64,000 bases of DNA from Naegleria gruberi. Taxonomy: Eukaryota. The number at the start of each line of letters is the position of its first letter. Position 1 is the first letter of the stretch. Made by a program: the position numbers and the translations under genes. The DNA lies in NCBI GenBank assembly GCA_000004985.1, contig GG738851.1; one strand, written 5' to 3'. This document shows, one piece after another, positions 13,858 to 43,989 of this stretch. The notes under the pieces were generated by a model. That model saw only the letters and a list, made by a program, of their open reading frames with translations. It had not been told where the DNA came from and did not search any database.

Positions 13858-14576
13858 TTTTCGATATTTATTTGATAGAAAAGAAACTAAAAAAACGTTA
13901 TATTCGATTAGTAGACAATCTCTAGTTTGAATTTATGTTGTTTTTTTCATTGTTTCCATTCAACTTTGCTCTTAAATAATTAAATTCTTTACTAGTATTG
14001 ACAAGAATTTTTTATTTTTAGCTGCACGGTTCAATGTTAAACGTTTTTCCTTTTTACTGAAATGTTGAATGGATTCTAGAAGGCAACGGTCAAGTGATGA
14101 CGAAAGCAATTATCATCGTACCTCCAACGTTAATTTGTTAATTCTGAAAAACTGTTCTTGCAATGTTCTATTTACAAGATTTTCAATGATTTTCTGAAAG
14201 TGTTGTTGATCCGAATGTGATTTAGAATGCAGTAATTGACAAGTTATTTGAAAACATGGTTAGATAATTGATCTTTCAGGTTCCTTTTCAATTTGAATGT
14301 GTGTTTCTAAAAGGTGTGAGTGGGCCCCAGCGTTTTACTTTTATTAGAAACCAAATAAGATTCAAAAACTATTGACGTAATTTACCTTTTTATTTAAATT
14401 GGACAAGAACATGGAAATTCTAACTCCTTTTGAATAATAGAAGATCTATAGGAATAGAATTTCCTCAAACCTAAATTAACCTTTTTTGGAAATTGGTCCT
14501 ATTGAGATATTTGATCAACTCACTTTTATTGGCCCTTGCATTGCTTTTCATCAAACCAAACAAGAAAAAAAGAATA

Positions 14577-27221: not shown

Positions 27222-28763
27222 ATGTACACCAAGCACATTGTGGCCTTGTTTTGTTTCGTCTTGTTGTGTGATGTTGTTGCTGTCAATGCAGCAGCAGACA
27301 TTCTCTCACAAATGATGGAACAAATTCAACAAGTAAAATCATCATCGTGCAGGTACACTGCCACAGGTGTTGATTTCTCACAATGTAACGGTTATTCTAA
27401 AGGCATACTTCCTCCCATGTATGCAATGTTAGGATATAATCCAACCTCGACCGATCTATTCACCCTTCCTATCACCGAACCGAGTACAAACATTATTGTT
27501 GAGGGATATTTTAACCCTCAGGATGTTCTGCCGAATGTATGCGAATTCGAAAGTGGCTATTCTACACTCTTCCAAAATTCAACACCTAATAACTCTGAAT
27601 TTACACCAAATTTATTTTGGAATTTCAATACTAATGACTATTCAAATATATTTGGAAATGTTCTTGACATTCAACATTCGTGTTCACTTCAAAGTGAAAC
27701 CTTTGTTGCGTACAAAACTAATTCAGCAAATCTTGATTCTAATTTCAAGAAAATTATTTCACTACTTCCTATGGAGTATAATGAACAAGTTTATTCTTTA
27801 TTTTACAATAGTTATGGACCTTTAGTTTCAAAAGGTAAATATGGAGGAAGTAGAATTGAGACAATTGTAAAATCTTCAAATTTAGGTGTGAATAGAGATA
27901 GTTCAAAAGTGAAAATTGTTGGTGGTTATTCTGAAAAGGATAAACAGAGTTGGTCTTATTCTGTCTATAGGAATCCAACTATGGTTGATGTTGAGTTGAT
28001 TAGGATGAGTGATTTTATTAGAAATTTGAATTTGGCCTCTAGTAAGGTGATCAAAAACATGATTAGATTTGAAAAATCATTGTTAACAAGTATTTCTAGT
28101 AGAGATGTATACCAATCGATCTTGGAGCAAAACCGTCCTTGTAAGAATATTATACTTTCTAATATGTATGAAATCTATATACACTATGCATGCTATGTTC
28201 CAAACGTGTACACAAATGACTTAATTTCAAGAACCTATGGTTATCAAACCAAATCAGAAAACATTTTCAAATATGGGGTTATGGGAAAGGTTTGGAATTT
28301 AGATTTAAAATGTGGTCCTTCAGAAACAATGAATTTTGACAGAAATCATAAATCAAAATTCTTTTCATTGCGTTCCAATAATGAGCCACCTCAATACCCT
28401 TTCACTAGACCAGTATATTTTGATTTGAATGAATTTAATAGCCAAAACAAAAATGACTACCGACATTTCAGAGAGGCAGCACCCTATTGGAAATCAGATA
28501 TTGGAAGTAGGACACCTTTAGGAATTTTGGGTTACTGCTCTCCAGTCAAGTTAAAAGGTATGAAGCCATTGAATTTATACAAGTATAGCATCAATGAAGG
28601 GTTTGGACATTATTTGAGTATTTATTCACCTTCAACACCACCTTTAGAATACAATATTGGTTATACATATCCTCCAGATACTGGTATTGTACAGAAACAA
28701 ATCGAATCAGGAGATCCTGATTTGATATATTTCAAAGTTTGTGTGGAATTGGAAACAGATTAA
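27222..28763 (+). CDS. Secreted protein with MACPF-like signature (YGPLVSKGKYGG), 513 aa; paralog of convergent neighbour
   Basis: ATG at 27222 and a signal peptide (MYTKHIVALFCFVLLCDVVAVNAAAD). The internal block LFYNSYGPLVSKGKYGGSRIETIVKSS resembles the MACPF motif Y-x6-[FY]-G-T-H-[FY]-x6-G-G. Its stop codon overlaps the stop of the minus-strand paralog (TTAA at 28760-28763). Confidence 0.6.
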   Translation: MYTKHIVALFCFVLLCDVVAVNAAADILSQMMEQIQQVKSSSCRYTATGVDFSQCNGYSKGILPPMYAMLGYNPTSTDLFTLPITEPSTNIIVEGYFNPQDVLPNVCEFESGYSTLFQNSTPNNSEFTPNLFWNFNTNDYSNIFGNVLDIQHSCSLQSETFVAYKTNSANLDSNFKKIISLLPMEYNEQVYSLFYNSYGPLVSKGKYGGSRIETIVKSSNLGVNRDSSKVKIVGGYSEKDKQSWSYSVYRNPTMVDVELIRMSDFIRNLNLASSKVIKNMIRFEKSLLTSISSRDVYQSILEQNRPCKNIILSNMYEIYIHYACYVPNVYTNDLISRTYGYQTKSENIFKYGVMGKVWNLDLKCGPSETMNFDRNHKSKFFSLRSNNEPPQYPFTRPVYFDLNEFNSQNKNDYRHFREAAPYWKSDIGSRTPLGILGYCSPVKLKGMKPLNLYKYSINEGFGHYLSIYSPSTPPLEYNIGYTYPPDTGIVQKQIESGDPDLIYFKVCVELETD

Positions 28764-30079
28764 GAGGCAGGATAAATATAACACATAAAATATTCTTTTT
28801 TGAATTGTGAGGGTGCTGTGCTTCCATAATAATGATAATAATTAAAATACCTATTAAGCTCAATCATTCCCGCATATTGCTTTGAAGAACAGTATCCTAT
28901 TGGATAAACATATGTGTTTGAGTCTTTTGCCACCTTGTCAACTTCTGCTTTGGAACCAGTCACAAATGATTCATAAGCTATCTTTTGGTATTGAATTTTG
29001 TAATTTTGAGCCAAATAAATTGGCAAATCATACTTGTCAGATTTTTCGTGAGAAAGAATTCCAATAGCCCTTTTTCTTAAAATTCTATAATTCATAAAAT
29101 TAATATAGTTTAAACTCTCTGAAAATGGAACCAATTTGTAAAACCATTTGTAATAACTTAAATATTGAGATTGATCCTTATTCGATTCAGCTGTGATTTC
29201 GCCAAACATGAATAAATTATTCGTGCAACTATCTGAAAGTGAGTACCAATTATCAAAGGATTGATCAATGTAATTTGTGTCCAGAAGTGGTAAATTTGAC
29301 TGGCTCAACATTTGTAATACTCTTTCATTGGTTAGTTCATACTTTTTAAGATATTCACTCAAAGTCATAATTGAAAAACCGGCTTTTCCTGGATATTGAA
29401 TTATATCTTGTTCGAAAGTTGTCGAATTTCCTTTCCCTCCTATTAATATTTCATCTTGATTACTAATTATTTGCGAAGAAGCACAAGAACTACTACTATA
29501 ATTAGCAAACAATCGAATTCCTCCATATTTGATATTTGTCACAACATAGGGACCATAAATTTGAAAGAAATTATTGAAAATTTTCTCATCTGTACTTCTT
29601 TCAAGAGCTGCAAGAGCACTCATCATTTCACTATTGTGTGAAATTGACATTTTCTCATCTGCTTCACTTGTAATGTAGTACTGAGCACTAATTGTGCACG
29701 ATAACTTTAGTTTCAATACATTAGAATAGAAACTCTTGTATCTATTCATTGTAAAAGGCCATAGTGGTGAATGTGGACTCATACTTTCTGATAATACTTT
29801 GTTTAGTCCATTCGTAGTGATTGTAGAGGAAAGTAACGTTTCACCCAACAAGGAAGTGTTACCTACCCCCTGATCACACACTCCATCTACAGTGTATTCC
29901 ACTGGTTTCGGCAATGAATATTTGGTTTTGTAATTTGTGAAGGCAATATTCTTGGAGAATGTGATTCCACCATTTTGTGAATATTTTGCAGTGACAGAGA
30001 AGGGTCTTGTTTGTTGTTGATGAGTTGGATGACCACACAGAAGGAGAAGATGCAACAACAGAATGACTGCAAGTCTCAT
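28760..30079 (-). CDS. Secreted paralog with MACPF-like signature (YGPYVVTNIKYGG), ~440 aa
   Basis: The ORF runs to 30124. The hydrophobic signal peptide MRLAVILLLHLLLLCG begins at ATG 30077-30079, with an alternative ATG at 30124. FFQIYGPYVVTNIKYGGIRLFANYSSS aligns to LFYNSYGPLVSKGKYGGSRIETIVKSS of the plus-strand neighbour. Confidence 0.6.
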   Translation of the reverse strand: MRLAVILLLHLLLLCGHPTHQQQTRPFSVTAKYSQNGGITFSKNIAFTNYKTKYSLPKPVEYTVDGVCDQGVGNTSLLGETLLSSTITTNGLNKVLSESMSPHSPLWPFTMNRYKSFYSNVLKLKLSCTISAQYYITSEADEKMSISHNSEMMSALAALERSTDEKIFNNFFQIYGPYVVTNIKYGGIRLFANYSSSSCASSQIISNQDEILIGGKGNSTTFEQDIIQYPGKAGFSIMTLSEYLKKYELTNERVLQMLSQSNLPLLDTNYIDQSFDNWYSLSDSCTNNLFMFGEITAESNKDQSQYLSYYKWFYKLVPFSESLNYINFMNYRILRKRAIGILSHEKSDKYDLPIYLAQNYKIQYQKIAYESFVTGSKAEVDKVAKDSNTYVYPIGYCSSKQYAGMIELNRYFNYYHYYGSTAPSQFKKEYFMCYIYPAS

Positions 30080-30175
30080 TACACATTCTCTTTCCATTTT
30101 TTCATGTTTTAAAACATATCGCATTAGTTATTGGAAAATGGCCGAAACGTGATTAAAGGTCAATATGAGAAAAAA

Positions 30176-33100
30176 ATGAAACAGCTTCAGAGGAAATACA
30201 TTGCTCACCAAGTGCTTATTCTATTGTTTGTCTTTTTAGCATTGTTTTCAAAAAGAACAATGTGTAACAAAGCTCTTGGGATCTCAACAATTGTTGTGGG
30301 AAACTTGACTAATCCGTTTGGCCTCTCCATAACCAATCAATCACTACTAGTGGCCAATACCATTGGTCAGACAATCCTCTATGTAGATTTGAATAATTAC
30401 TTTAATTATAGTGTCATTGTGGGTGTGAAAGATGTTGCTGGATTTAACGGAGATGGTCAATTGACATATTTAAATATTACACTTGCCAATCCACAAAAAG
30501 CTTTTAAATATAATTCATTGATTTATGTGGCCGACACTTGGAATCAGAGAATTAGAGTTATTGATGGGAATTTTATGTATACTTTAATTGGTGATGGTGA
30601 ATGTGGTGATTCCAAGAATGGAAATGATTTAAAATCTTTTCAATTATGTAATCCAACGGATATATTCGTATTGGATGATATAATTTATATATGTGATTCT
30701 AATAATCATAAAATAAGAAAGATACAAAATGGAACTGTTGAAACCATATGTGGAAATGGTGACAATGGATTTAATGGAGATGATATCAAGGCAGTTGACG
30801 CAAGTTTGAATGAGCCTCAATCTATATACGTTACCAGAAACACTAAAGGAACAGACCATATATTATATATAGCCGATACAAGCAATCATCGAATTAGGAA
30901 AGTGGAAAACGGAATTATTTCAACTATTTGTGGAAATGGTGAAAGTAAATATAATGGGGATTTGATTCCTGCTAAAGAAGCTTCTCTAAACAATCCAAAA
31001 TCTGTATTGGTAACATCTGTTGGTGAGGTTTATTTCAGATTTTTCAAATAATAGAATTAGAAAAATTTTGACAAATCAAACAATAATGACAGTAACAGAT
31101 TTAATAGATTCTCCAACAGGAATGAGTTTGGATGAAAAGAATAGCACTTTATATGTTTCTGAATTTCTTAAAGGTCAAGTGAAAAAGATTAGTTTTCAAT
31201 GTTCATATGGATATAAGATAGATTCGTATTTCAATTGTGAACCATTCTGCGAAAATGAATGTAAACATGATGGAATATGTATTGCACCAAACAAATGTGA
31301 TTGCTACTCTAAATATGATGGAGATTATTGTCAATATCCTATTTGCTATGGAATTCCAAGTAATATTAATTCCACATGTTCCAAAAATGGGGAATGTCAA
31401 GATTTTAACAAATGCCAATGTTATGATGGATATTTTGGAGATGATTGTACAGGAATACTTTGCTTTGGAAAGAACACAACAGATGCAACTGTTTGTTCTG
31501 GGCATGGTAAATGCATTGCCAAGAATCAGTGTTCCTGTACAGATGACATGTTTGGAGGATTGGAGTGTCAATATCCTAAATGCAGGGGAATAGAATCTGA
31601 TAAGAAAGAAGTATGCTCATCACATGGTAAATGTGAAGCTCCAAATACGTGTTCATGCTTTGAAAACTATGTTGGAGAGGACTGCCAGTTTATTTCTTGC
31701 TTTGGAAAATATTCGAATGATTCTAATGTGTGCTTTGGAAATGGCAATTGTTCTTCACCAGATTTTTGCGCGTGTAGAAAAGGTTATACAGGAACTGAGT
31801 GTGAATATACTACTTGCTTTTGGAAAGTTTCAAACGATTCCTCTGTTTGTTCAGGACATGGCAAGTGTGTGAAACCTGACACTTGTGAATGTTCCAATCA
31901 TGATCAGTTTACCGGTATTCAATGTGAAATACCAATCTGTTATGGTGTTCCAGCAAATAATAACAGTGTTTGCTCTTCACAAGGTACTTGTATTGATGTA
32001 GAAAGTTGCCAATGTAACTTGGGATATCATGGACCTATGTGTAATGTAATTGAATGTTTTAATCAATATTCCAATCAGAGTAGTGCCTGCAGTGGTCACG
32101 GGCAGTGCATTCTACCAAATCTATGCCAATGTCATGAGAATTCTTTCACTGGACTTGAATGTGAACTTCCAGTATGTAACAATATTACACAAACTGATCC
32201 AAGAGTATGTTCTGCTAATGGAGAATGCAAAGCAATCAATGATACTACGATATGTGATTGTAGGAATGGATATGCAGGAACTGATTGCGAATTTCCAACT
32301 TGTCTTGGAATTCCTTCATCTGATGTCGACAGAGTTTGTGGTGGAAAGGGAGATTGCTTGGCCCCTAATTTGTGTAAATGCAAAGATGGACTATATGATG
32401 GATTATATTGTGAATTTCCAACATGTAGTGGAAAATCAATGAGAAATAATACGGCATGTAGCGGTTTGAATCAAGGAATTTGTGAATCTCTAAACAATTG
32501 TGTCTGTAAACATGGATATACAGGAAACGAATGTCAAATTCCAATATGTTTTTCTGAATTGTCATCGTCACCTCTTGTATGCAGTGGACGTGGTACTTGT
32601 ACATCAGCTGACCGTTGCAAATGTAAGAACGGCTATTCAGGAAAGAATTGTGAAGTTCCTCATTGTTTTGGTATCAGTGCTAATCTTTCAAGAGTTTGTA
32701 ACTGGAGAAATGGTACCTGTGTTGATAAGGATCGATGTGAATGTAATTTAGGATATCATGGCAATAATTGTCAAGTTCCAACTTGTAATGGAATTCTCTC
32801 TACTGAGCCGTCATGTTGTGGAGGACCATTGCGAGGTCAATGTTTGGCTCACAACTCTTGCTCATGTGCCCATGGTAAATATGGTGGACCAAATTGTGAG
32901 TTTTCCTATTGCTTTGGAATACTTTCGAGTGAGGCAAATGTTTGTAAGGGAACGGGAACTTGTATTTATCATGACAAGTGCGAATGCCATCTTGGTTACG
33001 CTGGTAGTGATTGTGGAGTCCCTTTAGAGGCAGTGTATATTGCCTCATCGATTGGCGGAGTTATTGTCTTGGCCTTATTAGTCATTCTCCTTGTTGTTTG

Positions 33101-34316
33101 TTCCTTGTATTTGAGAAAAGTTATTAAGGCAAAGCAAAATTTGAAAAGAATGGAGAATCTTGTCGATGATAGGGAAATGTATACATCATTGGTAGAAACC
33201 AGTTTTCACAGCACATCCTCGAAGGATTTGTTTTTAAATCCGAGTGACTTTCAACCAATTCAGGGACAATACAGAGCCATGGAAGGTGGGCAAGGAAAAG
33301 TCTACGTCGCCAATTATATTGGTATCAAAGTTGCACTTAAAAAGTTCCATAACAATGTTCCAAATGATGACATGGACGAATTGTCAAATGGAATTTCTGA
33401 AGACATTGAAAAGGAAATGAGAATGTTAAACGGTCTAAGACATCCAAGTATTGTTACATTTTATGGATATACTCTCTATAATGGATCTCCTTCCATGGTT
33501 ATGGGATACGTTCCTCACGCCCTAAATTCAATCATTTACAAAATAAGGAGAGGTCAGAAAATGAGTTTGGATTTGAAAATTCAAATAATTTACAATGTTA
33601 GTCAAGGATTGGAACATTGTCATACAAGATCTCCTCCAGTGATTCACAGAGATATAAAATCAGCAAATATTTTACTGGATGTCAAGTCTGAAGAGGAAAA
33701 TATTATTTCAGAAGTAACAGAAGTCAAGATTTGTGATTTTGGATTAAGTACTAAAGCGGATAGAGCTGAAACAAAGGTTATAGGTACTCCACATTATATG
33801 GCACCTGAGCTATTTACTTTGAGAAATATGTACACTGACCTGTTTGTAAATGATGATGAAGATGAAGATGAAATTACAGATGGCAGCTTTGATGATTCAG
33901 TGGATTATGACACATCTTCCGATGTATATTCTTTAGCTATTGTTATGTGGGAGCTATTCTTTGAATTACCACCGTATGACATGTCCGTTTATGATCAATG
34001 TCATCCTTCACTTTTTAGAAAAATTGCCAAACATCGAAAAATGTCTGCCCAAGCCTCCAAAGATTTACTTTCAAGAGGTATTCTCCTGAGTAAGGCTAAT
34101 TTCAGACCATTCATCCCATTCGATGATAGCAACACTCAAGATTGGTTATTGAATTACAGAACCTTTGATGTTAAATTATTTGGAATTGACCAACTTGAAA
34201 CCTTAACTAAACAATTCATAAATCTCATGAAAGAATGTTGGAAGACAGATCCATATCAAAGACCTCAATCTTCCAAACTCAAAGAACAACTCCAAAAGAT
34301 GCTGAATAAGAAATAA
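30176..34316 (+). CDS. Receptor-like Ser/Thr kinase: extracellular NHL-repeat beta-propeller + ~25 EGF-like (tenascin/integrin-beta type) repeats + TM + TKL-type kinase domain; apparent 1-nt frameshift near 31030-31045
   Basis: ATG at 30176 (MKQLQRKY..., a signal anchor). The NHL motifs are YVADTWNQRIRVI, YICDSNNHKIRKI, YIADTSNHRIRKV and FISDFSNNRIRKI. The fourth NHL unit straddles the switch from ORF 30131..31051 to ORF 31020..34316, which lie in different frames. The cysteine repeats are about 31 aa each (C..G.C.....C.C..G..G..C). The TM helix is IASSIGGVIVLALLVILLVVCSLYL. Kinase motifs are VALKKF, HRDIKSANILLD, DFGLS and GTPHYMAPE. Confidence 0.75.
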
Positions 34317-34518: not shown

Positions 34519-35020
34519 ATGCCTAACGACGCCTACGATTACTCAGTCAAATTAAAGACAGAATTCGAACCAGTTCTCAAATTCTTCGAAGTAAAACCAA
34601 CAGGAAATCTCTTCAAAGATTTAACACTTTTAGCAGAAGCCATCGAAGGCGCCAAAATTGATGAAAAATTGACAAAATTCTTTTTCGATTTTTATGATCG
34701 TGACGGCAATGGAACAATAAGTCGTGACGAGTTATCAGTTCTTGTTCGGGATATTGGTGAAGCTATGGGTGATGATTCTATGAAGAATATTACTGATAGT
34801 CAATTAGATGATGCTATGGCAATTTTGGATGAAGATGGATCAGGTGAAATTGAATGGAATGAATTTAAGAATTGGTTTGATGAATTGATGGTATGTTTTT
34901 ATATATTTATAATATTTAATTATAATATTTAAATATTATTAAATATAATGATGATGATGATATTTAACATTGCCTGTTTCGGAATAATTATAGCAAAATG
35001 ATGATGGTGAACAAAAGTAA
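34519..35020 (+). CDS. EF-hand calcium-binding protein (2 canonical EF loops), 2 exons
   Basis: Exon 1 (34519..34890) contains DRDGNGTISRDEL and DEDGSGEIEWNEF loops and ends ...NWFDELM at a GTATGT donor. The acceptor TTATAG sits at 34992-34993. Exon 2 (34994..35020) encodes QNDDGEQK*. The terminal exon is inferred. Confidence 0.6.
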
Positions 35021-35977
35021 AAAACCAAATACATCACCACACCCATGATGATTCATTCCCTTTTCTCTTTCCATATATATTTATAAATTATGATTCTAAC
35101 ACATCATTCAAACAAAAAAAAAATTGTATAAAACTTCGAAATTATTTTCATTTGGTGCGGAATATTATTTTCTATTAGATTATCTAAAAACTTGAATTTT
35201 CACATCAATTTTAGAAGAAGTGTCATCTTCAGATCAATTTACAAAATATTTTACTATTGACATTTTAGAAAAAATTCTCTTCTCTTTAACTTTTACTAAA
35301 GCTTACTCGGTGGCAAACTTGTTCTTCATCGGAAAAGATGAAATCACTTGGATGGCCCAAAGATACCACTCACTGTGGGCAAAGATACCATTTTGTTGAT
35401 ATTTTTATGAGTAAAGAACGGAGAAGATTAAACACTTTAGAGTGGCAATTATGTTGAAAATATTGACTTGAATGTAATTGATGAGAATAGTCCTGGATGA
35501 CAATCATACAAGGAAATGAAACAAGAGTGGTATTTATCACATTGTGATATTCTTGACAACAGGTTTTTGAATGATGATCATATCACTTTACAACATCATC
35601 AAGACATCACCAAATAACCTATGAGATAGTCCAAAAAGAGAAAATTCAAAAACAGGGCAATGAACAACCAGAAGACATTAGCAAATGAATCATACCATTA
35701 ATATTGACAAGATGCAAAGGTTTGACGTGTTAAGAAGGGATTATTTATGCAAATTTCGCTTCTTGTTTGAATATTGTCACTTTCCATCAAATATTGCAAT
35801 ACAACATCAAGAGGCATTAACTTATAATAGGGCCATGCGAAAATAATCGTTGGCTCCATATTCAGACTAGTGTTCTTATTCATTTTGTGCTCATCAGAAA
35901 ATGTACTGTCCTAGAAATCTCTGATCATCAAACGATATGGCAGCTAATAGCTCAAAAATCAAAATCAAAAAAACATA

Positions 35978-38900
35978 ATGACGTCCAGAGTGTTTCCTCA
36001 ATCACAAAACACAGCTAGAGTCGCAGGAAGTGTAGTACTAAACGATGCAGAAACTTCCTCTCAATTTGGAGCAGGAACTTCTACCACTTCAAGCTCATTT
36101 GCTTCATCATTGGGTGGGAAAAGTGTTGTAAACAATGCAGGAATAAGTATTTTCTCACTGATAACAACTCTAAGACCTAAAGATACACTAGTTGGTGACG
36201 AGAATACTTACATGTTCCTAGGAATGATATTCTATCATATCTACTTGATATACAACTCTGTAATACTCTCATCACTTTCAACACCAATGATTAGAGATGA
36301 CGATACTAGAACATTGTGGGGAGTTATACCTGGTTGGATATGGAGAGCTTTGTATTTTCCAATCAATTGGGCATCTGAATTCTATCCTTACTTTCTAATT
36401 ATTTCACTATCAATAGCGTTTCTAATTTTACAATTTTCAACTTGTTTTGGAATTTATTATTGTAAATGGGCTTCAAGAAAGGGAGGAAAATTATTTGGAA
36501 GGATCAAGACATTTCTGCTGAATTCATTGTTATTCCAAAGAACTTTTACTTTATTCATCTTGTCTATTCATGCAATTTTGTTATCTCCAAATCTGGATTC
36601 CCAAAATGGAACTTTATATTATTTTCCAAGTCAATCTTTCAGCTCAGTGATACAAATAGTTTGTACCGTAATAGGATGTGTTGGAATATTGTTGAATATT
36701 GGTTTGACGGCTATTGCAACACTTTTAACTGCTGAAACGAGCCCTAAATTGAGCAAAAGAATTTGGTTTTCATTGTATTCAATTTCGCCTTTCATGTTCT
36801 TTAATTTTGTGAATCAAATTAGTTTAGTTTCAACTATTATTTGTACAGGACCTTATACCTATGTTGCTTCTATTGTGAAGATTGTAATGAACGTATTCCT
36901 GCTTATAGTAACGATGAAATCCTTACCATTCTTTAGAAAATGGGAGAATTGCTTTTATTTGGCATTGGTTAGTTTGAAAGTTTTTACTCCAATCCCAACT
37001 TTAATTTTGCAATTTCTTTCCTCGAATCAATTGAATCAACAAGAGATTGGTGGAATAATGACTGGTGTTACTTTTGCAACGGCAGTCATTTCTTTTGGAT
37101 CTGGCTTTATTATTTCTTACGTTTGGTTAGTAATTGAAATGAAATCAGTCAGAAATATGATTTCTAATAAGGAAGACAGTTCCGCAGCATTGCTTCTTCT
37201 TGAGAAATCAAAAAAGAAACAAGATAGTCTTTCACTATTCCTAAGATTTGCAAGCAATAGTGCTCCAGAAATGAAAGTGAGGGAAGGAAGCGATTTTGAC
37301 TTGGCCAAACATGCTGTAAACACACTAGTCAAACCAATTGAAAATGTTGAACTGTTAATTGTCAGTTCCTTATTTGTATCATTTGGTGGTATTCCAGATT
37401 ATGATAGTTCTCAATCATTTAGTATTGGATTGGCTCTATTACAAAAATCTCAACGAATTTCACCATCACTAGCTCAGGTATTCAATATCATGTTAAGAAA
37501 TGAAGAAATAGAATATCATGCCTTTCATGGAAATAATCTTGAAGTTTTAAGAAAACTTGTAATGGTTGAAAAGAAAGTGAAATCATTGTCTAGATGCCAC
37601 AAGTCATTCTTTAAAGAATTATTGAATGATAAACCATCTATTGGTAAATTAGAACAGATTAATAGTGCCAGTTGTTCAATTTATAACGAATGCGACACAA
37701 TTTATGATAATTTACTGGCTTCTAATAGATCCAACAAGACTCTGTTGAGATCGTATGCTTCCTATTTGGAAAAATACAAGTGGGAAATCCAGTTAGCAAA
37801 ACAATTATTTGAGGAAGCTCAAGACAATGATGAAGATAAGAATAAGCAACCGTTTAAGGCATACGAATCCTCATTCCATAAAGGGAACACCTCTAGGTTT
37901 AGTATAGATTCACAAAGAGCTAATATGGATGGTTGGGATTCAGTAAGTGTTGCTGGTGTAGAAGAGAATGACGAAGAAAGAAAAGATCATGTTTTGAGAA
38001 TGGCAATCAACTCTCCTATGTCAACAATTGTATATTCCACATTGTTTTTCCTATTCTGTGCTCTCTCAGTACTAACTATTTGTATCGTTGCTCCCGTTTC
38101 ACTTGTATTTTCTCAGAGTATCAATGAGAGAATGACCATGCAAGAGAAGGTATGCCTAATGACCTCAGTTCCATACAAATTATTAGCTCAGATTCAAGCA
38201 CTTCAAACAGAATATAATTTGAGAGGAAATAATACTGAAAAGCTACTTAATTCTACCATTGATTATACTAATAACTTGTTGGATACTGTTAAAACAGTGG
38301 TATCGGCTGGAGACAATAATATGCTAATGCCAGAAGTTGCCAGAGAATATTTGAAAAATCAATACGAACTTCAACTTCCAATTACAAATGATTCATTAAT
38401 TGGAAAGGAAATTCCTGCATATACAGCCACCAACGCCTCTATTCAATTCTATTTATCTGCTATGTACACTCATGGAAAGACCTTGTTAAATGAATTTAAT
38501 GCTATGGACGGACTGGTTTCGAATACCGATGAGAATTATGCTTTCTTATTTATTTTCTACAATAGAATTCCAATGACTTTAGCTTTCAATAGCTTGTGCT
38601 CTAAATTTGTTGAAGAAAGTGTATCTTCAATTGAAACAAATTTTGAACGCTTGTGGATAATCACAGTTTCCACTCTGGTAACTTATTTGAGTATTTCACT
38701 AATTTTCTTTACAATATTATTCACACACTCGAGAAGACTTGTTGTTGAGCTCAAAGAAATATTTAGAAGAATAACCAAAGATGAAATAGGGAAAGTTTAT
38801 CACAATTTCGAAAAGAAAATAGATGATTCTATTAGCTCTTCAAATAACCTTTTGAAAATGAGCAATATCCTAATGATTGGAAGTTTCCTCTTTGTAATCA

Positions 38901-40804
38901 TCATCTGCCTATGTTCCTTACTAGTCATTGTAGAGCTCAACAGCAACACCAAACAAAGTGCTCAATCCATGAATATTGTCGGTTCAATCAATGCAGTTTC
39001 ATTAAGAACTGCAAGAACCAACTTTAGATTACTCTGGTATATTGATAGGATAAAGTATTTAACCTTGGAACCTTCATTTGTTAACCAAGAAAATAAGCAA
39101 GATTTACTAGATTTGAGAACTTATTGGAATTATGTTGTGGTAGGCGATGAATCAACTTCTTACACATCTGCCATTTATGGAAAATATGATGATGTTGATT
39201 ATATATTATCTGATCTTTGTAATGATACTATTTCAATGGCTGATCCTTGTCACAGTTTAACTGCTGCCTTGACTGATTACATTACAAAAGCTCTTGATTA
39301 CAATGAAGTGTTCTATTACCAAAAAAAGAGTCAGACATTTATGGTAAATGAATATTTTGGGAAGATATTCTATGTTACGCAGACAATTACTTCCAATTTA
39401 CAAACTTTAATCTCTGCTCTTGTCACTCATGAAAAGGTTTCAAGTGTTGGGATAACAGCTTCTATGATTAGCTTATGTTTTATTTCCGCAATTTTATATG
39501 CTGTCATATGTTATTCATCCTTGAATAGGTATTGGAAAGAAAGAGCTTGTTTGAGAATGATGTTGAATTATATCAATTTAGATCTCATTGAAAGCAATTT
39601 GATATTGAGAGAATATGTCATGTCAAATGTTGTTCCTTCCTCAAAGATTTCCTCTAAAATAGTGCCATCTTTTGAAAGTGAGAAAGAAAAGGATGAAAAG
39701 ATTGAAATGGTCAAGACCATATTGAATGGAGGCGTAGATTCTGCAATTATTTGTGATAAGGATGGAAATATTACAATTTTCAATAATTCTGCTGAGGAAA
39801 TGTTTGGCTATTCCAGATCACAAGTTTTAGGTTTACCAATTCAAACTCTATTCACTTCTGAATATTCTGAGAGAATCATGAAATTGGTTTCTACTGGTGA
39901 ATCGCATGATTCATTCGAAGCAATGTCTCAGAGACGAAACAAGACTCATTTCTCTTCAAAGGTTTCAGTTTCCATTTCCATTCATGAAAAGAAACAAATT
40001 TTGATTGTCTTTATTCGTGATATTACTCCAGAAAAGAAACAGAGTTTATTAATTGCTGAGGAAAAGAAGAAGAGTGAAGATTTACTTTTGAATATTTTGC
40101 CAATGTCCATGGCTTCAAAATTGAAGAATGGTGAGGAGCATTTATATGAAAAAGTGAATGATATTACTGTTTTCTTTAGTGATATGGTTGGATTTACTGC
40201 ATGGAGTTCAAAACTGCAACCTAGTGAACTAGTTCATATCCTAAACTCGATTGTTACTGGATTTGATAAGCTGACTGAAATTCACTTGATTGATAAGATT
40301 AAAACTATTGGAGATGCCTATTTTTGTGTAAGTGGATTACACTCATGTAAATCTTCCGATCACCCAGAAAGAATGTTAAAGTTTGCCATTGAAATTATGT
40401 CCTTTTTAAAGAATATCAACACATCAAATCAAACATTAATTAATGTGAGAATTGGCATGCACACAGGCGATGCTGTTGGAGGAGTCATTGGATTTAAAAA
40501 GTTTGCCTACGATCTGTGGGGTGATACCATCAATACTGCCTCTCGTATGGAATCAACATCACTTCCAGGTAGAATTCAAATTTCCAGATCTACCTATGGA
40601 AGAGTTTATGACCTATTCGAATTTGAAGAGAGATTAATTGAAGTGAAAGGAAAAGGAGAATGTCAGACTTATCTACTGAAAGAGAAACATCATGAGAATC
40701 CAATAGCTCTTAATAACATGGCACAAGTGGAAGATAATGATCATTTAGAAGTTTCACAAGGACCATTTTCAAGCCATAAAGAAGATGAGCAACAGCAACA
40801 GTAA
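35978..40804 (+). CDS. Multi-pass membrane, PAS-domain-containing class III adenylyl cyclase (1608 aa)
   Basis: Single ORF with ATG at 35978. The N-terminal polytopic domain has about 8 TM helices. Further TM pairs bracket two exoplasmic loops of about 150-180 aa. The PAS domain is ILNGGVDSAIICDKDGNITIFNNSAEEMFGYSRSQVLGLPIQTLF. The cyclase core carries FSDMVGFT, KIKTIGDAYFCVSGL, IGMHTGD, AYDLWGDTINTASRMES and PGRIQIS. The Lys in KIKTIGD and the Asp in DLWG are the adenine-specifying residues, so this is predicted to be an adenylyl cyclase. Confidence 0.85.
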   Translation: MTSRVFPQSQNTARVAGSVVLNDAETSSQFGAGTSTTSSSFASSLGGKSVVNNAGISIFSLITTLRPKDTLVGDENTYMFLGMIFYHIYLIYNSVILSSLSTPMIRDDDTRTLWGVIPGWIWRALYFPINWASEFYPYFLIISLSIAFLILQFSTCFGIYYCKWASRKGGKLFGRIKTFLLNSLLFQRTFTLFILSIHAILLSPNLDSQNGTLYYFPSQSFSSVIQIVCTVIGCVGILLNIGLTAIATLLTAETSPKLSKRIWFSLYSISPFMFFNFVNQISLVSTIICTGPYTYVASIVKIVMNVFLLIVTMKSLPFFRKWENCFYLALVSLKVFTPIPTLILQFLSSNQLNQQEIGGIMTGVTFATAVISFGSGFIISYVWLVIEMKSVRNMISNKEDSSAALLLLEKSKKKQDSLSLFLRFASNSAPEMKVREGSDFDLAKHAVNTLVKPIENVELLIVSSLFVSFGGIPDYDSSQSFSIGLALLQKSQRISPSLAQVFNIMLRNEEIEYHAFHGNNLEVLRKLVMVEKKVKSLSRCHKSFFKELLNDKPSIGKLEQINSASCSIYNECDTIYDNLLASNRSNKTLLRSYASYLEKYKWEIQLAKQLFEEAQDNDEDKNKQPFKAYESSFHKGNTSRFSIDSQRANMDGWDSVSVAGVEENDEERKDHVLRMAINSPMSTIVYSTLFFLFCALSVLTICIVAPVSLVFSQSINERMTMQEKVCLMTSVPYKLLAQIQALQTEYNLRGNNTEKLLNSTIDYTNNLLDTVKTVVSAGDNNMLMPEVAREYLKNQYELQLPITNDSLIGKEIPAYTATNASIQFYLSAMYTHGKTLLNEFNAMDGLVSNTDENYAFLFIFYNRIPMTLAFNSLCSKFVEESVSSIETNFERLWIITVSTLVTYLSISLIFFTILFTHSRRLVVELKEIFRRITKDEIGKVYHNFEKKIDDSISSSNNLLKMSNILMIGSFLFVIIICLCSLLVIVELNSNTKQSAQSMNIVGSINAVSLRTARTNFRLLWYIDRIKYLTLEPSFVNQENKQDLLDLRTYWNYVVVGDESTSYTSAIYGKYDDVDYILSDLCNDTISMADPCHSLTAALTDYITKALDYNEVFYYQKKSQTFMVNEYFGKIFYVTQTITSNLQTLISALVTHEKVSSVGITASMISLCFISAILYAVICYSSLNRYWKERACLRMMLNYINLDLIESNLILREYVMSNVVPSSKISSKIVPSFESEKEKDEKIEMVKTILNGGVDSAIICDKDGNITIFNNSAEEMFGYSRSQVLGLPIQTLFTSEYSERIMKLVSTGESHDSFEAMSQRRNKTHFSSKVSVSISIHEKKQILIVFIRDITPEKKQSLLIAEEKKKSEDLLLNILPMSMASKLKNGEEHLYEKVNDITVFFSDMVGFTAWSSKLQPSELVHILNSIVTGFDKLTEIHLIDKIKTIGDAYFCVSGLHSCKSSDHPERMLKFAIEIMSFLKNINTSNQTLINVRIGMHTGDAVGGVIGFKKFAYDLWGDTINTASRMESTSLPGRIQISRSTYGRVYDLFEFEERLIEVKGKGECQTYLLKEKHHENPIALNNMAQVEDNDHLEVSQGPFSSHKEDEQQQQ

Positions 40805-40989
40805 AAGTAAATTGATTTTACATCTTAAAATTGTTTCATACATCCAAATCCAATAAGGTATGGATAAAATGCTCCAATTAGAACGTTGAATATCGAAAAT
40901 CAAACTCTGCAACACAGTAAAAATCAATGAAAAACTTGATTTTCCTCCCGTAACTCGAAAATGACAAGTGGAAAAAAGAGCGAAAACAC

Positions 40990-43989
40990 ATGTCCCAAGC
41001 AAATTCATTGAGCAATGAAGGTGGTGGTATCAGCAAAGATGTTAATCCACCTGTTGAAGATTTTCCGTCTGCCGAGGTGGAAGAGGAAGAATTTTACAAT
41101 TCATCATTTGATGATAGAAAACAAGTGAGTGGGAGAATTGAAGAACAACAACAACATGATGACGATAATCCAATTTTGATGACTATTCCATCATCAAATT
41201 ATGGATATTCCATCAATGATAATTCCGTTTCGCAACTACACCAACAACAACAAGGAGAAGAACAACAATTTAATTCTTCTTCGGCTACCATCCATGCCAA
41301 TAGTTGGAAAGAGAAAATTCAAGCTATGAGAGGAGGTGGTTGGAGAGAGTATTTCAATATTGTTTCGATTTGTTCCTTTCTGACTGTAACATTGTGTTTC
41401 GCTGCTGTTTCGTTTATTTTCTTGATTTATCCATTTGTGTATGTGAGAGATTTTTCACACACTTTGGTAGAAAGTTCACAAATCAAATTGCAACCATACT
41501 ATCCACTCGGTTATAAACCAAAAGGATATGTACCAAAGTTTTCTCAAGCAACCACCAAATTGACAGTTCCAGGAAATGCAAGATTCATAATGTTATCTTT
41601 TGTAGCAAATGCATCAGTGGAAGCTGTCGTTTTCAGAAATACTCTCACTTACTATAATCAATTCATTGATGCAACAGCTTTGAGTGCCTACTATACGAAT
41701 CAGACACAATTCATATTCGATAATCCTTTGGAAAGAAGCTTTTTTGTAATTTCAGAAAATTACTATGCAACCAGATTCTTTGCAACAAAGATTATGAATC
41801 ATACGAGTTTGGAGTTTGATAATTCTCCATTGAATAATGAAAACAAAACTGTGCTGTACATTGTTTGGAGAAATGAAAATTTAACTCCTCTCGAAAATAC
41901 CATTGTAATCGATTATTGGTACAGACTTGAATATGATGATTATAGGGAGACTACAAGTTTCACATTTGCCATGATTTCATTTGGTGCTTTTGTTCTTGCA
42001 GCTAGTTGTGTCTTGTTAAATACTCCAACAGTTTCTGGAATTTTCTCAATAGTTTACAATTTCTTGAGAAATTTACTATCATTCAAAAAACCTCTACCTG
42101 AAAATGGAGAGTGGAGTATTGATAATACTTTAGCACGAGGAGCTGACATTATTTTCCAAGATTTGTCATTTGTCTCATTCACAGATAAGGTAATTTTATA
42201 TCCAACAACTGGAATTTTGAAAGCTGGCAAGTTAACAGCAGTTATGGGTCAATCTGGTTCTTCAAAATCAACTTTTTGTAATGTTCTTTGTGGAAGAGCT
42301 TCCCATGGTATTCAGAAAGGAAAAGTCCTAATCAATGGAAATTCATTCTCTGGAAATACTAACAATTTAGTTGGATTTGTTACACAAGATGACATTATGT
42401 CTCCTCATTTAACTGTCAAGGAAACTTTGGAGTTTTCATGTAAGATTAGAAAGAATAAGAAGAATTCTGAAAAGGTCGAAGGTGTAATGCAAAAGTTAGG
42501 AATTACAAAAGTTCAAAATTCACAAACTTCAGTAATCAGTGGAGGTGAAAAAAGAAGAACATCAATTGGTATTGAAATGGTTGCAGACACACCAATTTAT
42601 ATTCTAGATGAACCTAGTTCTGGACTCGATTCAGAATCTGCTCTCTCCCTTTGTAAAACCCTTAGAGAAATAGCAGAAGAAAACAACTCGAATATTATTT
42701 GTGTTATCCATCAACCTTCATATGAAATATTGGAACAATTTCATGATATAATGCTGTTCAGGGAAGGTAGATTACTATTCCACAGTCCTGTACCAACTGT
42801 AATCCAATCACTCAAAGAGCATATCCCTTCTCATATTATTCGTAGCAATCCTGCTGATGAGATTTTGAGAACTCTTTCAACAGATTCTGTTGAAATTGTT
42901 AATTCCATTATCAAAAATACTGATCCAGCCATTCATTCCATTTCGAGAAAGCTCGAATTAGATTGGAAAGATATGAAAACTTCACCATTTTACATTCATT
43001 TCTATGCATGTTTTGTGAGAGCTGTCAAACAATTCTACAGAGATTGGAGAAATTTGATATTTGAAATTCTCATTTCCTTTGTTGTTGGTTTGCTTATTGG
43101 AGTATTATTTAATGGTCTTGAATTTATTGGAAGTGTTTCAAGTTCAAAATATAGCAAATGTCCAATAGAAATCAGAGCTGGTTGCATGCTTCCTCAATCG
43201 GATACGATTGCTCCATACTCATCTTTCCTCGTTTTGGCCATTGCATTGATATCTATAATGAGAGGTTTGAGAGTTTTTGGATTTGAAATTGAGAATTTCA
43301 AAAGAGAATCTCATGTAGGTCTCAATTCTTGGATGTACTTTTTATCGAAGGATTTGATTTCAATTTTTGTGATTGCTGTCATTTCTTTCAGTACTACATT
43401 TGGCATGTTATCTGCATTACCACATACTAACTTTTTCATTCTCTATGCCATTGTATTTCTAACAATTATGGCTGGTTTTCCAATTGGTTATACATTGTCA
43501 TTCTTCTTTGATCCACAAATAGCTCAATTGGCAGCTGCCTTAGTAGTTGTAGTATTTTACAGTTTTGGAGGAAATAATCCAACCATTCCTGAAATTGAAA
43601 AGCTTTCTCCAGTTCTTGCCTACAGTCACGTTATCACCTATTTTAGATATATTAGAGGTTTAATTTATATGGAAGAACTTATTACAAGAAGAGAAGATAA
43701 CGACATTGCATCAGCTCTTAAGGTGAATGGATATGAAATTGAAGCAATTTCATTCTACTTTTATGCTCTCTTCTTTTGGATTGTAGTTTTCAGGTATATG
43801 GCAGTATATTGTATGTGGGCTTGGAAACCTCGTTCTCTGTTCAGTAAGATTAATTTCCTATCAAGGAGATTGACTGGACGATTCTCTACCTGGTTTTCAA
43901 ATAAGATTGTTCAACCATTGAGAATGAAAATGAAAAGAAATAAGTATAAGGAAGTTGATAACTCTGAAGTAAATCCTTTCAAGCAATAA
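40990..43989 (+). CDS. ABCG-type half transporter (NBD-TMD) with ~350-aa N-terminal extension
   Basis: Walker A is MGQSGSSKST, the signature is VISGGEKRRTSIG and Walker B is IYILDEPSSGLD. These are followed by six TM helices of the ABC2 type. The N-terminal extension is low-complexity (QQQQ, SS) with two hydrophobic helices. Confidence 0.85.
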   Translation: MSQANSLSNEGGGISKDVNPPVEDFPSAEVEEEEFYNSSFDDRKQVSGRIEEQQQHDDDNPILMTIPSSNYGYSINDNSVSQLHQQQQGEEQQFNSSSATIHANSWKEKIQAMRGGGWREYFNIVSICSFLTVTLCFAAVSFIFLIYPFVYVRDFSHTLVESSQIKLQPYYPLGYKPKGYVPKFSQATTKLTVPGNARFIMLSFVANASVEAVVFRNTLTYYNQFIDATALSAYYTNQTQFIFDNPLERSFFVISENYYATRFFATKIMNHTSLEFDNSPLNNENKTVLYIVWRNENLTPLENTIVIDYWYRLEYDDYRETTSFTFAMISFGAFVLAASCVLLNTPTVSGIFSIVYNFLRNLLSFKKPLPENGEWSIDNTLARGADIIFQDLSFVSFTDKVILYPTTGILKAGKLTAVMGQSGSSKSTFCNVLCGRASHGIQKGKVLINGNSFSGNTNNLVGFVTQDDIMSPHLTVKETLEFSCKIRKNKKNSEKVEGVMQKLGITKVQNSQTSVISGGEKRRTSIGIEMVADTPIYILDEPSSGLDSESALSLCKTLREIAEENNSNIICVIHQPSYEILEQFHDIMLFREGRLLFHSPVPTVIQSLKEHIPSHIIRSNPADEILRTLSTDSVEIVNSIIKNTDPAIHSISRKLELDWKDMKTSPFYIHFYACFVRAVKQFYRDWRNLIFEILISFVVGLLIGVLFNGLEFIGSVSSSKYSKCPIEIRAGCMLPQSDTIAPYSSFLVLAIALISIMRGLRVFGFEIENFKRESHVGLNSWMYFLSKDLISIFVIAVISFSTTFGMLSALPHTNFFILYAIVFLTIMAGFPIGYTLSFFFDPQIAQLAAALVVVVFYSFGGNNPTIPEIEKLSPVLAYSHVITYFRYIRGLIYMEELITRREDNDIASALKVNGYEIEAISFYFYALFFWIVVFRYMAVYCMWAWKPRSLFSKINFLSRRLTGRFSTWFSNKIVQPLRMKMKRNKYKEVDNSEVNPFKQ

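What the first reader, a model, noticed from the sequence alone, without database searches (positions are those of the whole stretch)
35978..40804. 1608-aa multi-sensor adenylyl cyclase: polytopic N-domain, two TM-bracketed exoplasmic loops, PAS, homodimeric class III catalytic domain
The catalytic domain keeps both metal-binding Asp (FSDMVGFT, IGDAY), the transition-state N...R (NTASR), and the adenine-specifying Lys (KIKTIGD) and Asp (DLWG). This points to an active adenylyl cyclase that would work as a homodimer. It is fused to a PAS domain and to a very large membrane-embedded portion with two extracytoplasmic loops of 150-180 aa that could be ligand sensors. The architecture is bacterial-style rather than the 2x6TM animal type.
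Basis: partly seen in the sequence, partly recalled or inferred. Interest (0 to 1): 0.55.

Follow-up and report, generated by a model that had tools for sequence, protein, structure and literature searches.

The report
Naegleria receptor-type membrane adenylyl cyclase
This is an intact gene of a Naegleria amoeba for a 12-helix membrane adenylyl cyclase whose two outside-facing loops are predicted to look like bacterial chemoreceptor sensor bundles; it belongs to a large, already catalogued but never studied gene family, so it is a solid yet fairly ordinary find.

Summary
Window 35978-40804 (+) is one uninterrupted 1608-codon ORF. It encodes Pfam Guanylate_cyc, PAS_9 and a TPR_TmcB domain, with all six canonical class III residues (D1402, D1446, K1442, D1512, N1519, R1523). 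That residue set indicates an ATP-specific cyclase that must dimerise.

The window is eukaryotic, from a Naegleria species. The N. gruberi ortholog (NAEGRDRAFT_68774, "FM180") is 72% identical. About 90 cluster representatives were found; every named one checked is from Naegleria or Willaertia. Most of the 32 long ones aligned carry TPR_TmcB, PAS and cyclase domains.

Topology is 8 TM, a cytosolic TPR-like domain, then TM-loop-TM twice, then PAS, a coiled coil and the cyclase domain. It is supported by hydropathy, the positive-inside rule, and Cys pairs and N-glycosylation sequons conserved in both loops.

Verdict: a receptor-type class IIIa adenylyl cyclase, and an undescribed architectural variant. 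Ligands and activity are untested. Interest is moderate to low.

The parts
35978..40804 (+). Complete single-exon gene, 1608 aa plus stop: membrane adenylyl cyclase
   Evidence: The ORF is listed and translated. It is collinear over 100% of its length with N. gruberi NAEGRDRAFT_68774, including the start (MTSRV.. vs MASRV..). dN/dS is 0.135 against metagenome copy L001.
36197..37141 (+). N-terminal polytopic domain, 8 predicted TM helices (aa 74-388), N-in/C-in
   Evidence: Hydropathy peaks and K+R counts alternate as the positive-inside rule predicts. Loop 163-178 has 6 K/R, while loops 204-218 and 348-359 have 0. The AF2 model has helices at these positions with pLDDT mostly above 90. There is no Pfam hit and no solved fold match.
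37178..37846 (+). Cytosolic all-helical TPR-like domain (aa 401-623), containing Pfam TPR_TmcB (aa 522-623)
   Evidence: Pfam PF25474 scores 39.2 bits against a cut-off of 27 and is found in 31 of 32 family members. AF2 predicts a helix-turn-helix array. The only Foldseek hits are weak matches to TPR proteins such as TTC7B, Tom71 and APC subunits, with E above 0.1.
38030..38113 (+). TM9 (aa 685-712), continuing as a long extracellular helix
   Evidence: Hydropathy score is 2.67. AF2 predicts one continuous helix over aa 684-749.
38126..38647 (+). Extracytoplasmic loop 1 (aa 717-890): four-helix-bundle-like module with a beta-hairpin insert
38654..38725 (+). TM10 (aa 893-916)
   Evidence: Hydropathy and the AF2 helix.
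38732..38845 (+). Short cytosolic connector (aa 919-956) with the conserved motif IPKDxxGKxYHxL
   Evidence: It contains 9 K/R. K934 and G938 are nearly invariant, and the motif appears in the family consensus.
38861..38941 (+). TM11 (aa 962-988)
   Evidence: Hydropathy score 3.1, the strongest in the protein, and an AF2 helix.
38954..39436 (+). Extracytoplasmic loop 2 (aa 993-1153): second four-helix-bundle-like module
39446..39520 (+). TM12 (aa 1157-1181)
   Evidence: Hydropathy and an AF2 helix over aa 1158-1198.
39545..39625 (+). Conserved juxtamembrane segment (aa 1190-1216; consensus LRxMLNYxPxExxDxNExL)
   Evidence: R1193 is nearly invariant and the motif appears in the family consensus.
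39707..40033 (+). Cytosolic PAS domain (aa 1244-1352)
   Evidence: Pfam PAS_9 E 1.2e-15 and PAS E 8.5e-11. It is 88% identical to the N. gruberi ortholog. The nearest solved sequences are DosP and FixL, weakly.
40034..40147 (+). Helical linker / cyclase-transducer-like element (aa 1353-1390; ..EEKKKSEDLLLNILPMSMASKLK..)
   Evidence: It aligns with the helical segment that precedes C1 and C2 in AC5, AC8 and AC9. It is 92% identical to the ortholog and averages 59% identity among paralogs.
40148..40681 (+). Class III cyclase homology domain (aa 1391-1568) with D1402, D1446, K1442, D1512, N1519 and R1523
   Evidence: Pfam PF00211 E 2.3e-53. Residue-by-residue alignment to solved ACs, motif positions, and the DDKDNR set conserved in nearly all paralogs whose catalytic domain is complete.

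Best explanation
What it is. The ORF is a functional nuclear gene of a Naegleria species (Heterolobosea). It encodes a receptor-type class IIIa adenylyl cyclase.

Shown. The ORF is intact and under purifying selection. It carries a complete catalytic domain with both metal-binding Asp, the adenine-specifying Lys and Asp, and the transition-state Asn and Arg on one chain. This residue set points to ATP as substrate and to activity only as a dimer with two symmetric active sites. The partner would be another copy of itself or possibly a paralog.

Topology. The predicted chain runs in this order:
- cytosolic N-tail
- 8-TM domain
- cytosolic TPR-like (TmcB-type) domain
- TM9, extracytoplasmic helical bundle 1, TM10
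- short conserved cytosolic connector
- TM11, extracytoplasmic helical bundle 2, TM12
- conserved juxtamembrane segment
- PAS domain
- helical transducer
- cyclase domain.

Inferred mechanism. The two glycosylated, disulfide-containing ectodomain bundles resemble bacterial four-helix-bundle chemoreceptor and histidine-kinase sensors. They would bind an extracellular cue, possibly at the interface of the two bundles, which could act as an intramolecular pseudo-dimer. Displacement of TM12, and perhaps TM10/TM11, would pass through the juxtamembrane helix and the PAS domain into the coiled-coil transducer. That would change the register of the two catalytic domains and hence cAMP output. The PAS domain and the TPR-like domain offer additional cytosolic inputs, from a small ligand and from a protein partner respectively.
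For: Gene reality: the ORF, the 72% identical full-length ortholog, and dN/dS of 0.135.

Catalysis and specificity: Pfam hit of 181 bits. The six residues align to C1 and C2 of solved AC5, AC8 and AC9. The DDKDNR set is kept in nearly all complete paralogs.

Class IIIa affinity: the best solved-structure matches are mammalian tmACs (E 4.5e-60), mycobacterial Cya (E about 1e-44) and receptor guanylyl cyclases. The alignments extend into the pre-catalytic helix.

Topology: hydropathy and K+R distribution. Cys pair C726/C874 in 31/32 members. Sequon N819-x-S in 30/32, and a loop-2 C..NxS/T..C motif in 32/32.

Constraint on the loops: 72-76% identity to the ortholog, as high as or higher than the TM domain at 61%.

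Family context: about 90 cluster representatives; the named ones checked are all from Naegleria or Willaertia. Of 32 aligned long members, 31 have TPR_TmcB, 29 PAS_9 and 26 Guanylate_cyc.
Against: There is no enzymatic, localisation or ligand data for this protein or for any family member.

Model coordinates could not be inspected, so the side-by-side packing of the two bundles is not verified. It is only suggested by the pTM of 0.83.

No cofactor or ligand can be assigned to the PAS domain. The best alignment is to the non-heme PAS-B of DosP, and no His is conserved across the family.

The role of the 8-TM domain is unknown.
Confidence: 0.7

Rival explanations
1. The loops are not ligand sensors. 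They would be structural or dimerisation scaffolds, or glycosylated spacers. Regulation would then come from the cytosolic side only, through the PAS ligand or redox state, TPR-mediated protein partners, or phosphorylation.
Confidence: 0.3
2. The 8-TM N-terminal domain is a transporter or channel and the cyclase is a fused regulator or reporter. Precedents would be the alveolate K+-channel/adenylyl cyclase and P4-ATPase/guanylyl cyclase fusions.
For: There is a large polytopic domain of unknown function, conserved across the family. Protist cyclases fused to transport modules exist: P4-ATPase-type cyclases appeared among the catalytic-domain hits P0003 and P0004.
Confidence: 0.1
3. It is a guanylyl or dual-specificity cyclase, or a catalytically dead pseudo-enzyme.
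For: Pfam PF00211 covers both adenylyl and guanylyl cyclases. Receptor guanylyl cyclases are among the significant structural relatives (ANP receptor, E 2.6e-40).
Against: The specificity pair is Lys/Asp (K1442/D1512), as in AC C2 domains, not the Glu/Cys pair of guanylyl cyclases (plus established knowledge of class III cyclases). All catalytic residues are intact, and the catalytic domain shows no non-synonymous change against the metagenome copy.
Confidence: 0.05

Closest known systems
N. gruberi NAEGRDRAFT_68774 ('FM180') and the Naegleria/Willaertia TmcB-PAS-cyclase paralog family (uncharacterised database entries)
   Same: It is 72% identical over the full length, with the same Pfam domains (PF25474, PAS, PF00211). 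Paralogs such as FM179, NAEGRDRAFT_71437, N. fowleri FDP41_007173 and Willaertia ABK040_006139 share the whole 1-1200 aa architecture.
   Different: It is a different species or lineage. The exact protein is not on record; only a 99% identical metagenome copy is. No member has been studied experimentally as far as the literature searches show.
Mycobacterial Rv1625c/Cya-type and mammalian membrane adenylyl cyclases (class IIIa)
   Same: They share the catalytic-domain sequence, the six catalytic residues and the pre-catalytic helical transducer (E 4.5e-60 to AC5, about 1e-44 to M. intracellulare Cya). Like Cya, this protein has a single CHD per chain and must homodimerise. Like mammalian ACs, it has 12 TM helices in total.
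   Different: Mammalian enzymes have 2x6 TM and two complementary half-domains (C1/C2) in one chain. Cya has 6 TM with minimal loops. This protein has 8+2+2 TM, two ectodomains of about 170 aa each, a TPR-like domain and a PAS domain.
Bacterial four-helix-bundle sensor domains of chemoreceptors and histidine kinases (Tar/Tsr, PcaY, PilJ/McpN, NarX/NarQ, TorS)
   Different: There is no detectable sequence homology. Here two such modules sit in tandem in one chain, in a eukaryote, with Cys pairs and N-glycosylation sequons and a beta-hairpin insert in module 1. The output is a PAS-cyclase rather than a HAMP-kinase or an MCP.
Other protist receptor-type single-CHD cyclases: trypanosome ESAG4/GRESAG4 cyclases, Dictyostelium ACG, Trichomonas TMACs
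   Same: They follow the same logic: an extracellular or membrane sensor plus one cytosolic CHD that dimerises, in lineage-specific gene expansions. Trichomonas has about 123 TMACs, with N-terminal TM helices, a conserved cytosolic domain and a C-terminal cyclase (PMC2914791). Naegleria has at least 81 cyclases (PMC9928731).
   Different: From general knowledge, not tested here: trypanosome enzymes have one TM and a periplasmic-binding-protein-like ectodomain, and ACG has two TM with one sensor. The Trichomonas paper does not mention a PAS domain or large ectodomains.
Dictyostelium TmcB/TmcC ('tiny macrocysts' proteins; the name is recalled from memory)
   Same: They share the Pfam TPR_TmcB domain (PF25474), here above the curated cut-off.
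   Different: It could not be tested whether TmcB shares the TM domains and loops, because no TmcB sequence could be retrieved. It was not determined whether TmcB has a cyclase domain.

Membership tests
Class III nucleotidyl cyclase (Pfam PF00211) | Profile match above the curated threshold | tested here: met
   181 bits against a cut-off of 21.9, covering profile positions 4-182 of 183.
Class III nucleotidyl cyclase (Pfam PF00211) | Two metal-binding Asp plus transition-state Asn and Arg | tested here: met
   D1402 and D1446 align to the C1 Asp residues. N1519 and R1523 align to the C2 Asn and Arg of AC5, AC8 and AC9.
Adenylyl (not guanylyl) cyclase specificity | Lys and Asp at the purine-recognising positions (Glu and Cys in guanylyl cyclases) | tested here: met
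   K1442 aligns with the Lys of C2 'KIKTIGSTY' and D1512 with the Asp of 'YDIWG'. Product specificity itself was not assayed.
Homodimeric (single-CHD) cyclase | One CHD per chain that carries both half-site residue sets | tested here: met
   There is a single PF00211 stretch with all six residues present. Dimerisation itself is not testable with these tools.
Class IIIa subclass | Closest relatives are mammalian tmACs, receptor GCs and Rv1625c-type Cya; a conserved helical transducer lies directly upstream of the CHD | tested here: met
   The top PDB hits are exactly these proteins. The alignments start 30-35 residues before the CHD (query LLLNILPMSMASKLK against AC5 LLLSVLPRHVAMEMK).
Mammalian-type tmAC (2x6TM, C1+C2) | Two CHDs in one chain forming a pseudo-heterodimer | tested here: not met
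   Only one CHD is present, and the TM arrangement is 8+2+2.
PAS domain | Profile match above threshold | tested here: met
   PAS_9 scores 58 bits against 27, and PAS scores 42.3 against 22.6.
Heme- or flavin-binding PAS (FixL/DosP, LOV) | Conserved proximal His (heme) or the NCRFLQ Cys motif (LOV) | tested here: inconclusive
   There is no NCRFL motif in the sequence. The best DosP alignment is to the second PAS, not to the heme-binding first PAS. No His is conserved in the family consensus. The FixL residue-level alignment was not inspected.
4HB_MCP / TarH-type four-helix-bundle sensor | Sequence-profile membership | tested here: not met
   No Pfam family matches either loop at E <= 10, and there is no PDB sequence hit.
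4HB_MCP / TarH-type four-helix-bundle sensor | TM-flanked extracytoplasmic antiparallel four-helix bundle | tested here: met
4HB_MCP / TarH-type four-helix-bundle sensor | Ligand binding that modulates output | not testable with these tools
   Needs biochemistry.
TmcB/TmcC family | TPR_TmcB domain (PF25474) | tested here: met
   39.2 bits against a cut-off of 27, and 31 of 32 family members match.
TmcB/TmcC family | Full-length collinearity with Dictyostelium TmcB | not tested
   No TmcB sequence could be obtained. The profile search with the TPR region returned nothing.

The most novel reading that the evidence does not exclude
The family would be a eukaryotic chemoreceptor-cyclase. Two tandem four-helix-bundle modules, possibly derived from an internal duplication (hhalign probability 60-79%), would form an intramolecular pseudo-dimeric ligand pocket like the Tar dimer interface. 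This would drive a PAS-gated homodimeric adenylyl cyclase. The dozens of paralogs with diverged ectodomains would then be Naegleria's repertoire of environmental or prey chemosensors, and possibly flagellum-associated, given the 'FM' gene names.
Probability: 0.3. Interest if true: 0.6.

Novelty: new variant of a known kind. Interest (0 to 1): 0.35.

Why it matters
Whether the membrane anchors of class III adenylyl cyclases act as receptors is an old question in the field. This family offers a eukaryotic enzyme whose membrane portion carries two sizeable, confidently modelled, glycosylated ectodomains of chemoreceptor-like fold. They are wired through a PAS domain and the conserved transducer helix to a canonical catalytic domain.

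Because the paralogs differ mainly in the ectodomains, loop-swap chimeras could test receptor function directly. The family may also explain part of the very large cyclase repertoire of Naegleria, including the pathogen N. fowleri.

For this particular gene the finding is mainly an annotation improvement. The gene, its ortholog and its Pfam domains are already in public databases.

Tried and rejected
Searches that gave nothing or little:
- The search for homologous proteins with the full protein returned only two family members plus unrelated cyclases, because the word index was swamped.
- The same tool with a profile of aa 1-1240 again returned only those two.
- With a profile of the TPR region it returned nothing. 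Taxonomic spread of the TmcB module outside Heterolobosea could therefore not be established.
- The exhaustive phmmer search supplied the family instead.
- Fold search against afdb50 was unavailable, so predicted-structure relatives such as Dictyostelium TmcB could not be found.
- Foldseek against the PDB gave nothing with E < 0.1.
- A profile of the N-terminal 1240 aa against PDB sequences gave nothing.
- Pfam at E <= 10 on each loop and on the 8-TM domain gave nothing meaningful.

Internal duplication of the loops:
- BLASTP of loop module 1 against module 2 found no significant similarity.
- Profile-profile comparison was only suggestive.

Literature:
- Searches for TmcB or 'tiny macrocysts', FM180 or NAEGRDRAFT_68774, and the JGI id 68774 found nothing relevant.
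- The N. gruberi genome paper (PubMed 20211133) is not held, so the meaning of the 'FM' gene name rests on memory.

Other checks:
- The exact protein is not in the contig index, so the species could not be named.
- No paralog or fragment lies elsewhere in the window (tblastn).
- Rejected readings: bacterial origin of the window, since its neighbours are EGF-repeat kinases, EF-hand, SDA1 and HSP70 genes; pseudogene, given dN/dS of 0.135; guanylyl cyclase, given the K/D pair.
Full report
OBSERVATION. Window 35978-40804 (+) is a single ORF of 1608 codons with an ATG start. The window has about 33% G+C, so an ORF of this length cannot be a chance product. Pfam finds Guanylate_cyc at aa 1391-1568 (E 2.3e-53), PAS_9 at aa 1254-1350 (E 1.2e-15), and TPR_TmcB (PF25474) at aa 522-623, above its curated cut-off.

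ORGANISM AND CONTEXT. The window is eukaryotic. Its neighbours encode an NHL/EGF-repeat protein kinase, an EF-hand protein, an ABCG-type transporter, a protein kinase, SDA1 (split by an intron), HSP70, a SHIPPO-repeat protein and a Wntless-like protein. The cyclase is 72% identical over its whole length to Naegleria gruberi NAEGRDRAFT_68774, named 'Uncharacterized protein FM180' in UniProt. It is 99% identical to a protein from an ENA metagenome assembly. That metagenome contig is 97.7% identical in DNA to window 35740-40968. Within the ORF the two copies differ by 43 synonymous and 22 non-synonymous changes. This gives dN/dS = 0.135, with no amino-acid change in the PAS or catalytic domains. 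The gene is therefore real and under purifying selection. The exact protein is not on record. The window comes from a Naegleria lineage other than the N. gruberi reference strain, and I could not name the species.

CATALYTIC DOMAIN. phmmer against all PDB sequences puts mammalian AC5, AC9 and AC8 (E about 1e-60), mycobacterial Cya (E about 1e-44) and receptor guanylyl cyclases (E about 1e-40) on top. In the printed alignments the query's D1402 and D1446 align with the metal-binding Asp residues of the C1 domains (FADIEGFT, LGDCYYC). Its K1442, D1512, N1519 and R1523 align with the Lys, Asp, Asn and Arg of the C2 domains (KIKTIGSTY, YDIWGNTVNVASRM). One chain thus carries both half-sites. Established knowledge of class III cyclases says such an enzyme works as a head-to-tail homodimer with two active sites, and that the Lys/Asp pair specifies ATP. 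The alignments extend about 30 residues upstream of the catalytic domain (query LLLNILPMSMASKLK against AC5 LLLSVLPRHVAMEMK). This is the helical transducer, or coiled-coil segment, typical of class IIIa and IIIb enzymes; the 'cyclase transducer element' of Ziegler et al. 2017 is cited from memory. This linker is the most conserved non-catalytic part of the family.

FAMILY. An exhaustive phmmer search with aa 1-1200 (everything upstream of PAS) against 1.84 billion cluster representatives found 93 proteins with E < 1e-3 and 26 with E < 1e-30. Many are 1400-1800 aa long and match along the full 1-1199. Every named protein among the 30 clusters looked up is from N. gruberi, N. fowleri, N. lovaniensis or Willaertia magna. 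Of 32 aligned long members, 31 have TPR_TmcB, 29 have PAS_9 and 26 have Guanylate_cyc; the exceptions are mostly truncated gene models. Nearly all members with a complete catalytic domain keep the D-D-K-D-N-R set. This is a large heterolobosean paralog family of uncharacterised 'predicted proteins'. It forms part of the known expansion of cyclases in Naegleria, which has at least 81 cyclases according to PMC9928731. No other copy lies in this window.

TOPOLOGY. Kyte-Doolittle analysis gives eight hydrophobic helices between aa 74 and 388. It gives four very strong ones at about 685-712, 893-916, 962-988 and 1157-1181. Lys+Arg counts alternate as the positive-inside rule predicts. The proposed cytosolic loops 163-178, 254-291, 389-680 and 919-956 hold 6, 3, 40 and 9 K/R. 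The proposed outside loops 204-218 and 348-359 hold none. With PAS and the cyclase necessarily cytosolic, loops 717-890 (174 aa) and 993-1153 (161 aa) must be extracytoplasmic.

Independent support comes from conservation.
- C726 and C874 are present in 31/32 members.
- An N-x-S/T sequon at N819 is present in 30/32.
- A C...N-x-S/T...C motif in loop 2 (C1081, N1082-D-T, C1091) is present in 32/32.

Conserved cysteine pairs and glycosylation sequons are expected only on the lumenal or extracellular side. One refinement applies: aa 401-623 is a folded cytosolic helical-repeat domain, not membrane.

STRUCTURE OF THE NON-CATALYTIC PART. Two AlphaFold2 runs used alignments of 62 and 45 family members. 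They gave confident models: aa 60-1240 with pLDDT 87.9 and pTM 0.68, and aa 670-1200 with pLDDT 88.8 and pTM 0.83. Both loops are helical. TM9 continues as a helix of about 65 residues reaching far outside. It is followed by a return helix, a short helix, a beta-hairpin (aa 796-820, carrying the invariant P801 and the conserved sequon), and two to three more helices. The last of these runs back through the membrane as TM10. Loop 2 repeats the pattern without the hairpin.

BLASTP sees no similarity between the two TM-loop-TM modules. Profile-profile comparison is collinear over 224 columns with probability 79% (global) or 60% (local, ectodomains only, P 8.7e-5). This suggests an old internal duplication but does not establish it.

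The 8-TM domain has no Pfam match and no solved structural relative. The cytosolic repeat domain gives only weak Foldseek matches to TPR proteins.

PAS. The domain is a clear PAS. Its nearest solved sequences are the DosP and FixL PAS domains, at weak E-values (5e-7 to 1e-3). The longer DosP alignment is to the second, non-heme PAS. There is no LOV motif, and no His is conserved across the family. Its ligand or cofactor is unknown.

MECHANISM (inferred). The protein dimerises through the coiled-coil transducer and the catalytic domains. An extracellular cue bound by the two bundles displaces TM12. The cue may bind at the interface between the bundles, which could mimic the Tar/Tsr dimer within one chain. 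The signal passes through the conserved juxtamembrane segment (LRxMLNYxP, with R1193 nearly invariant), the PAS domain and the transducer helix, and sets the catalytic dimer's activity. The conserved cytosolic connector between TM10 and TM11 (IPKDxxGKxYHxL; K934 and G938 nearly invariant) and the TPR-like domain are candidate docking or regulatory surfaces.

The conservation pattern fits a diversified receptor repertoire. Ectodomains are 72-76% identical between orthologs but only 18-19% between paralogs. The catalytic domain is 91% identical between orthologs and 63% between paralogs.

What is shown: the gene, its domains, its catalytic residues, its topology markers and its family. What is predicted: the folds. 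What is inferred: ligand sensing and the transmission path.

RIVALS. (a) The loops could be scaffolds rather than sensors, with regulation coming only from PAS or TPR; this is plausible (0.3). (b) The 8-TM domain could be a transporter or channel fused to a cyclase, as in alveolates; no fold evidence supports this (0.1). (c) It could be a guanylyl cyclase or a dead enzyme; the residues contradict this (0.05).

COMPARISON WITH THE KNOWN. The catalytic core is an ordinary class IIIa adenylyl cyclase. A single catalytic domain combined with a sensor and a lineage-specific expansion recalls trypanosome receptor cyclases, Dictyostelium ACG and the roughly 123 Trichomonas TMACs (PMC2914791). The particular architecture is not among the characterised cyclase types I know of or could find. 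It consists of 8 TM, a TmcB-type TPR domain, two TM-bracketed 4HB-like ectodomains, PAS and one CHD, giving 12 TM in total as in animal ACs but arranged 8+2+2. It is nevertheless already present, unstudied, in public databases for several Naegleria species. I rate it a new variant of a known kind, with moderate-to-low interest (0.35).

LIMITS. There is no experimental evidence of any kind. Model coordinates and PAE could not be inspected. AFDB fold libraries were unavailable. The word-indexed homology searches failed for this composition-biased protein. The 'FM' label, which I recall as the flagellar-motility-associated set of the N. gruberi genome paper, could not be checked because the paper is not held.

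Noticed in passing
window 30131-31051 (+) and 31020-34316 (+): Two overlapping ORFs in different frames. The first carries NHL repeats (teneurin-type). The second carries many teneurin-like EGF repeats followed by a protein kinase domain. They are probably one receptor-kinase gene interrupted by a short intron. The ectodomain looks unusually animal-like for a protist kinase.
   Followed up: no
window 27222-28763 (+) and 28760-30124 (-): Two convergent ORFs with weak MACPF (perforin-like) hits, E 2.8e-6 and 6.7e-4. They are possible pore-forming proteins, which would be of interest in a Naegleria genome.
   Followed up: no
window 24126-25280 (-) and 23129-24106 (-): The SDA1 HEAT-repeat protein is split across two adjacent ORFs (profile positions 1-289 and 316-364 plus SDA1_dom). 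This shows that the genome has spliceosomal introns, whereas the 4.8-kb cyclase gene has none.
   Followed up: partly
window 40990-43989 (+) and 34519-34932 (+): The cyclase is flanked on the same strand by a 137-aa EF-hand protein upstream and a 999-aa ABCG-type (ABC_tran + ABC2_membrane) transporter 186 bp downstream. It was not tested whether this linkage is conserved in N. gruberi.
   Followed up: no
window 50283-51812 (+): An ORF with a SHIPPO / sperm-tail PG-rich repeat (ODF3-like), a flagellar protein family. This fits an amoeboflagellate host.
   Followed up: no
L001 1-5240 = window 35740-40968: An environmental metagenome contig (ENA ERZ929261, project PRJEB11402) carries the same gene at 97.7% DNA identity, so this Naegleria lineage or a close relative occurs in that sampled environment. 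Most divergence lies in the flanks. dN/dS in the ORF is 0.135, and loop 1 is the fastest-evolving region, with dN 0.017.
   Followed up: yes
window 17075-20347 (-), 6823-8922 (-), 14493-15845 (+): Long ORFs of 1090, 699 and 450 aa with no Pfam match at E <= 1e-3. They are uncharacterised proteins.
   Followed up: no
window 37856-37960 (aa 627-661 of the cyclase): The only long low-confidence (pLDDT < 50) stretch in the model. It is an acidic, Ser-rich linker between the TPR-like domain and TM9, flanked in the family by a conserved 'KKExxxRxAL' motif just before TM9. It may be a phosphoregulatory or flexible tether.
   Followed up: no
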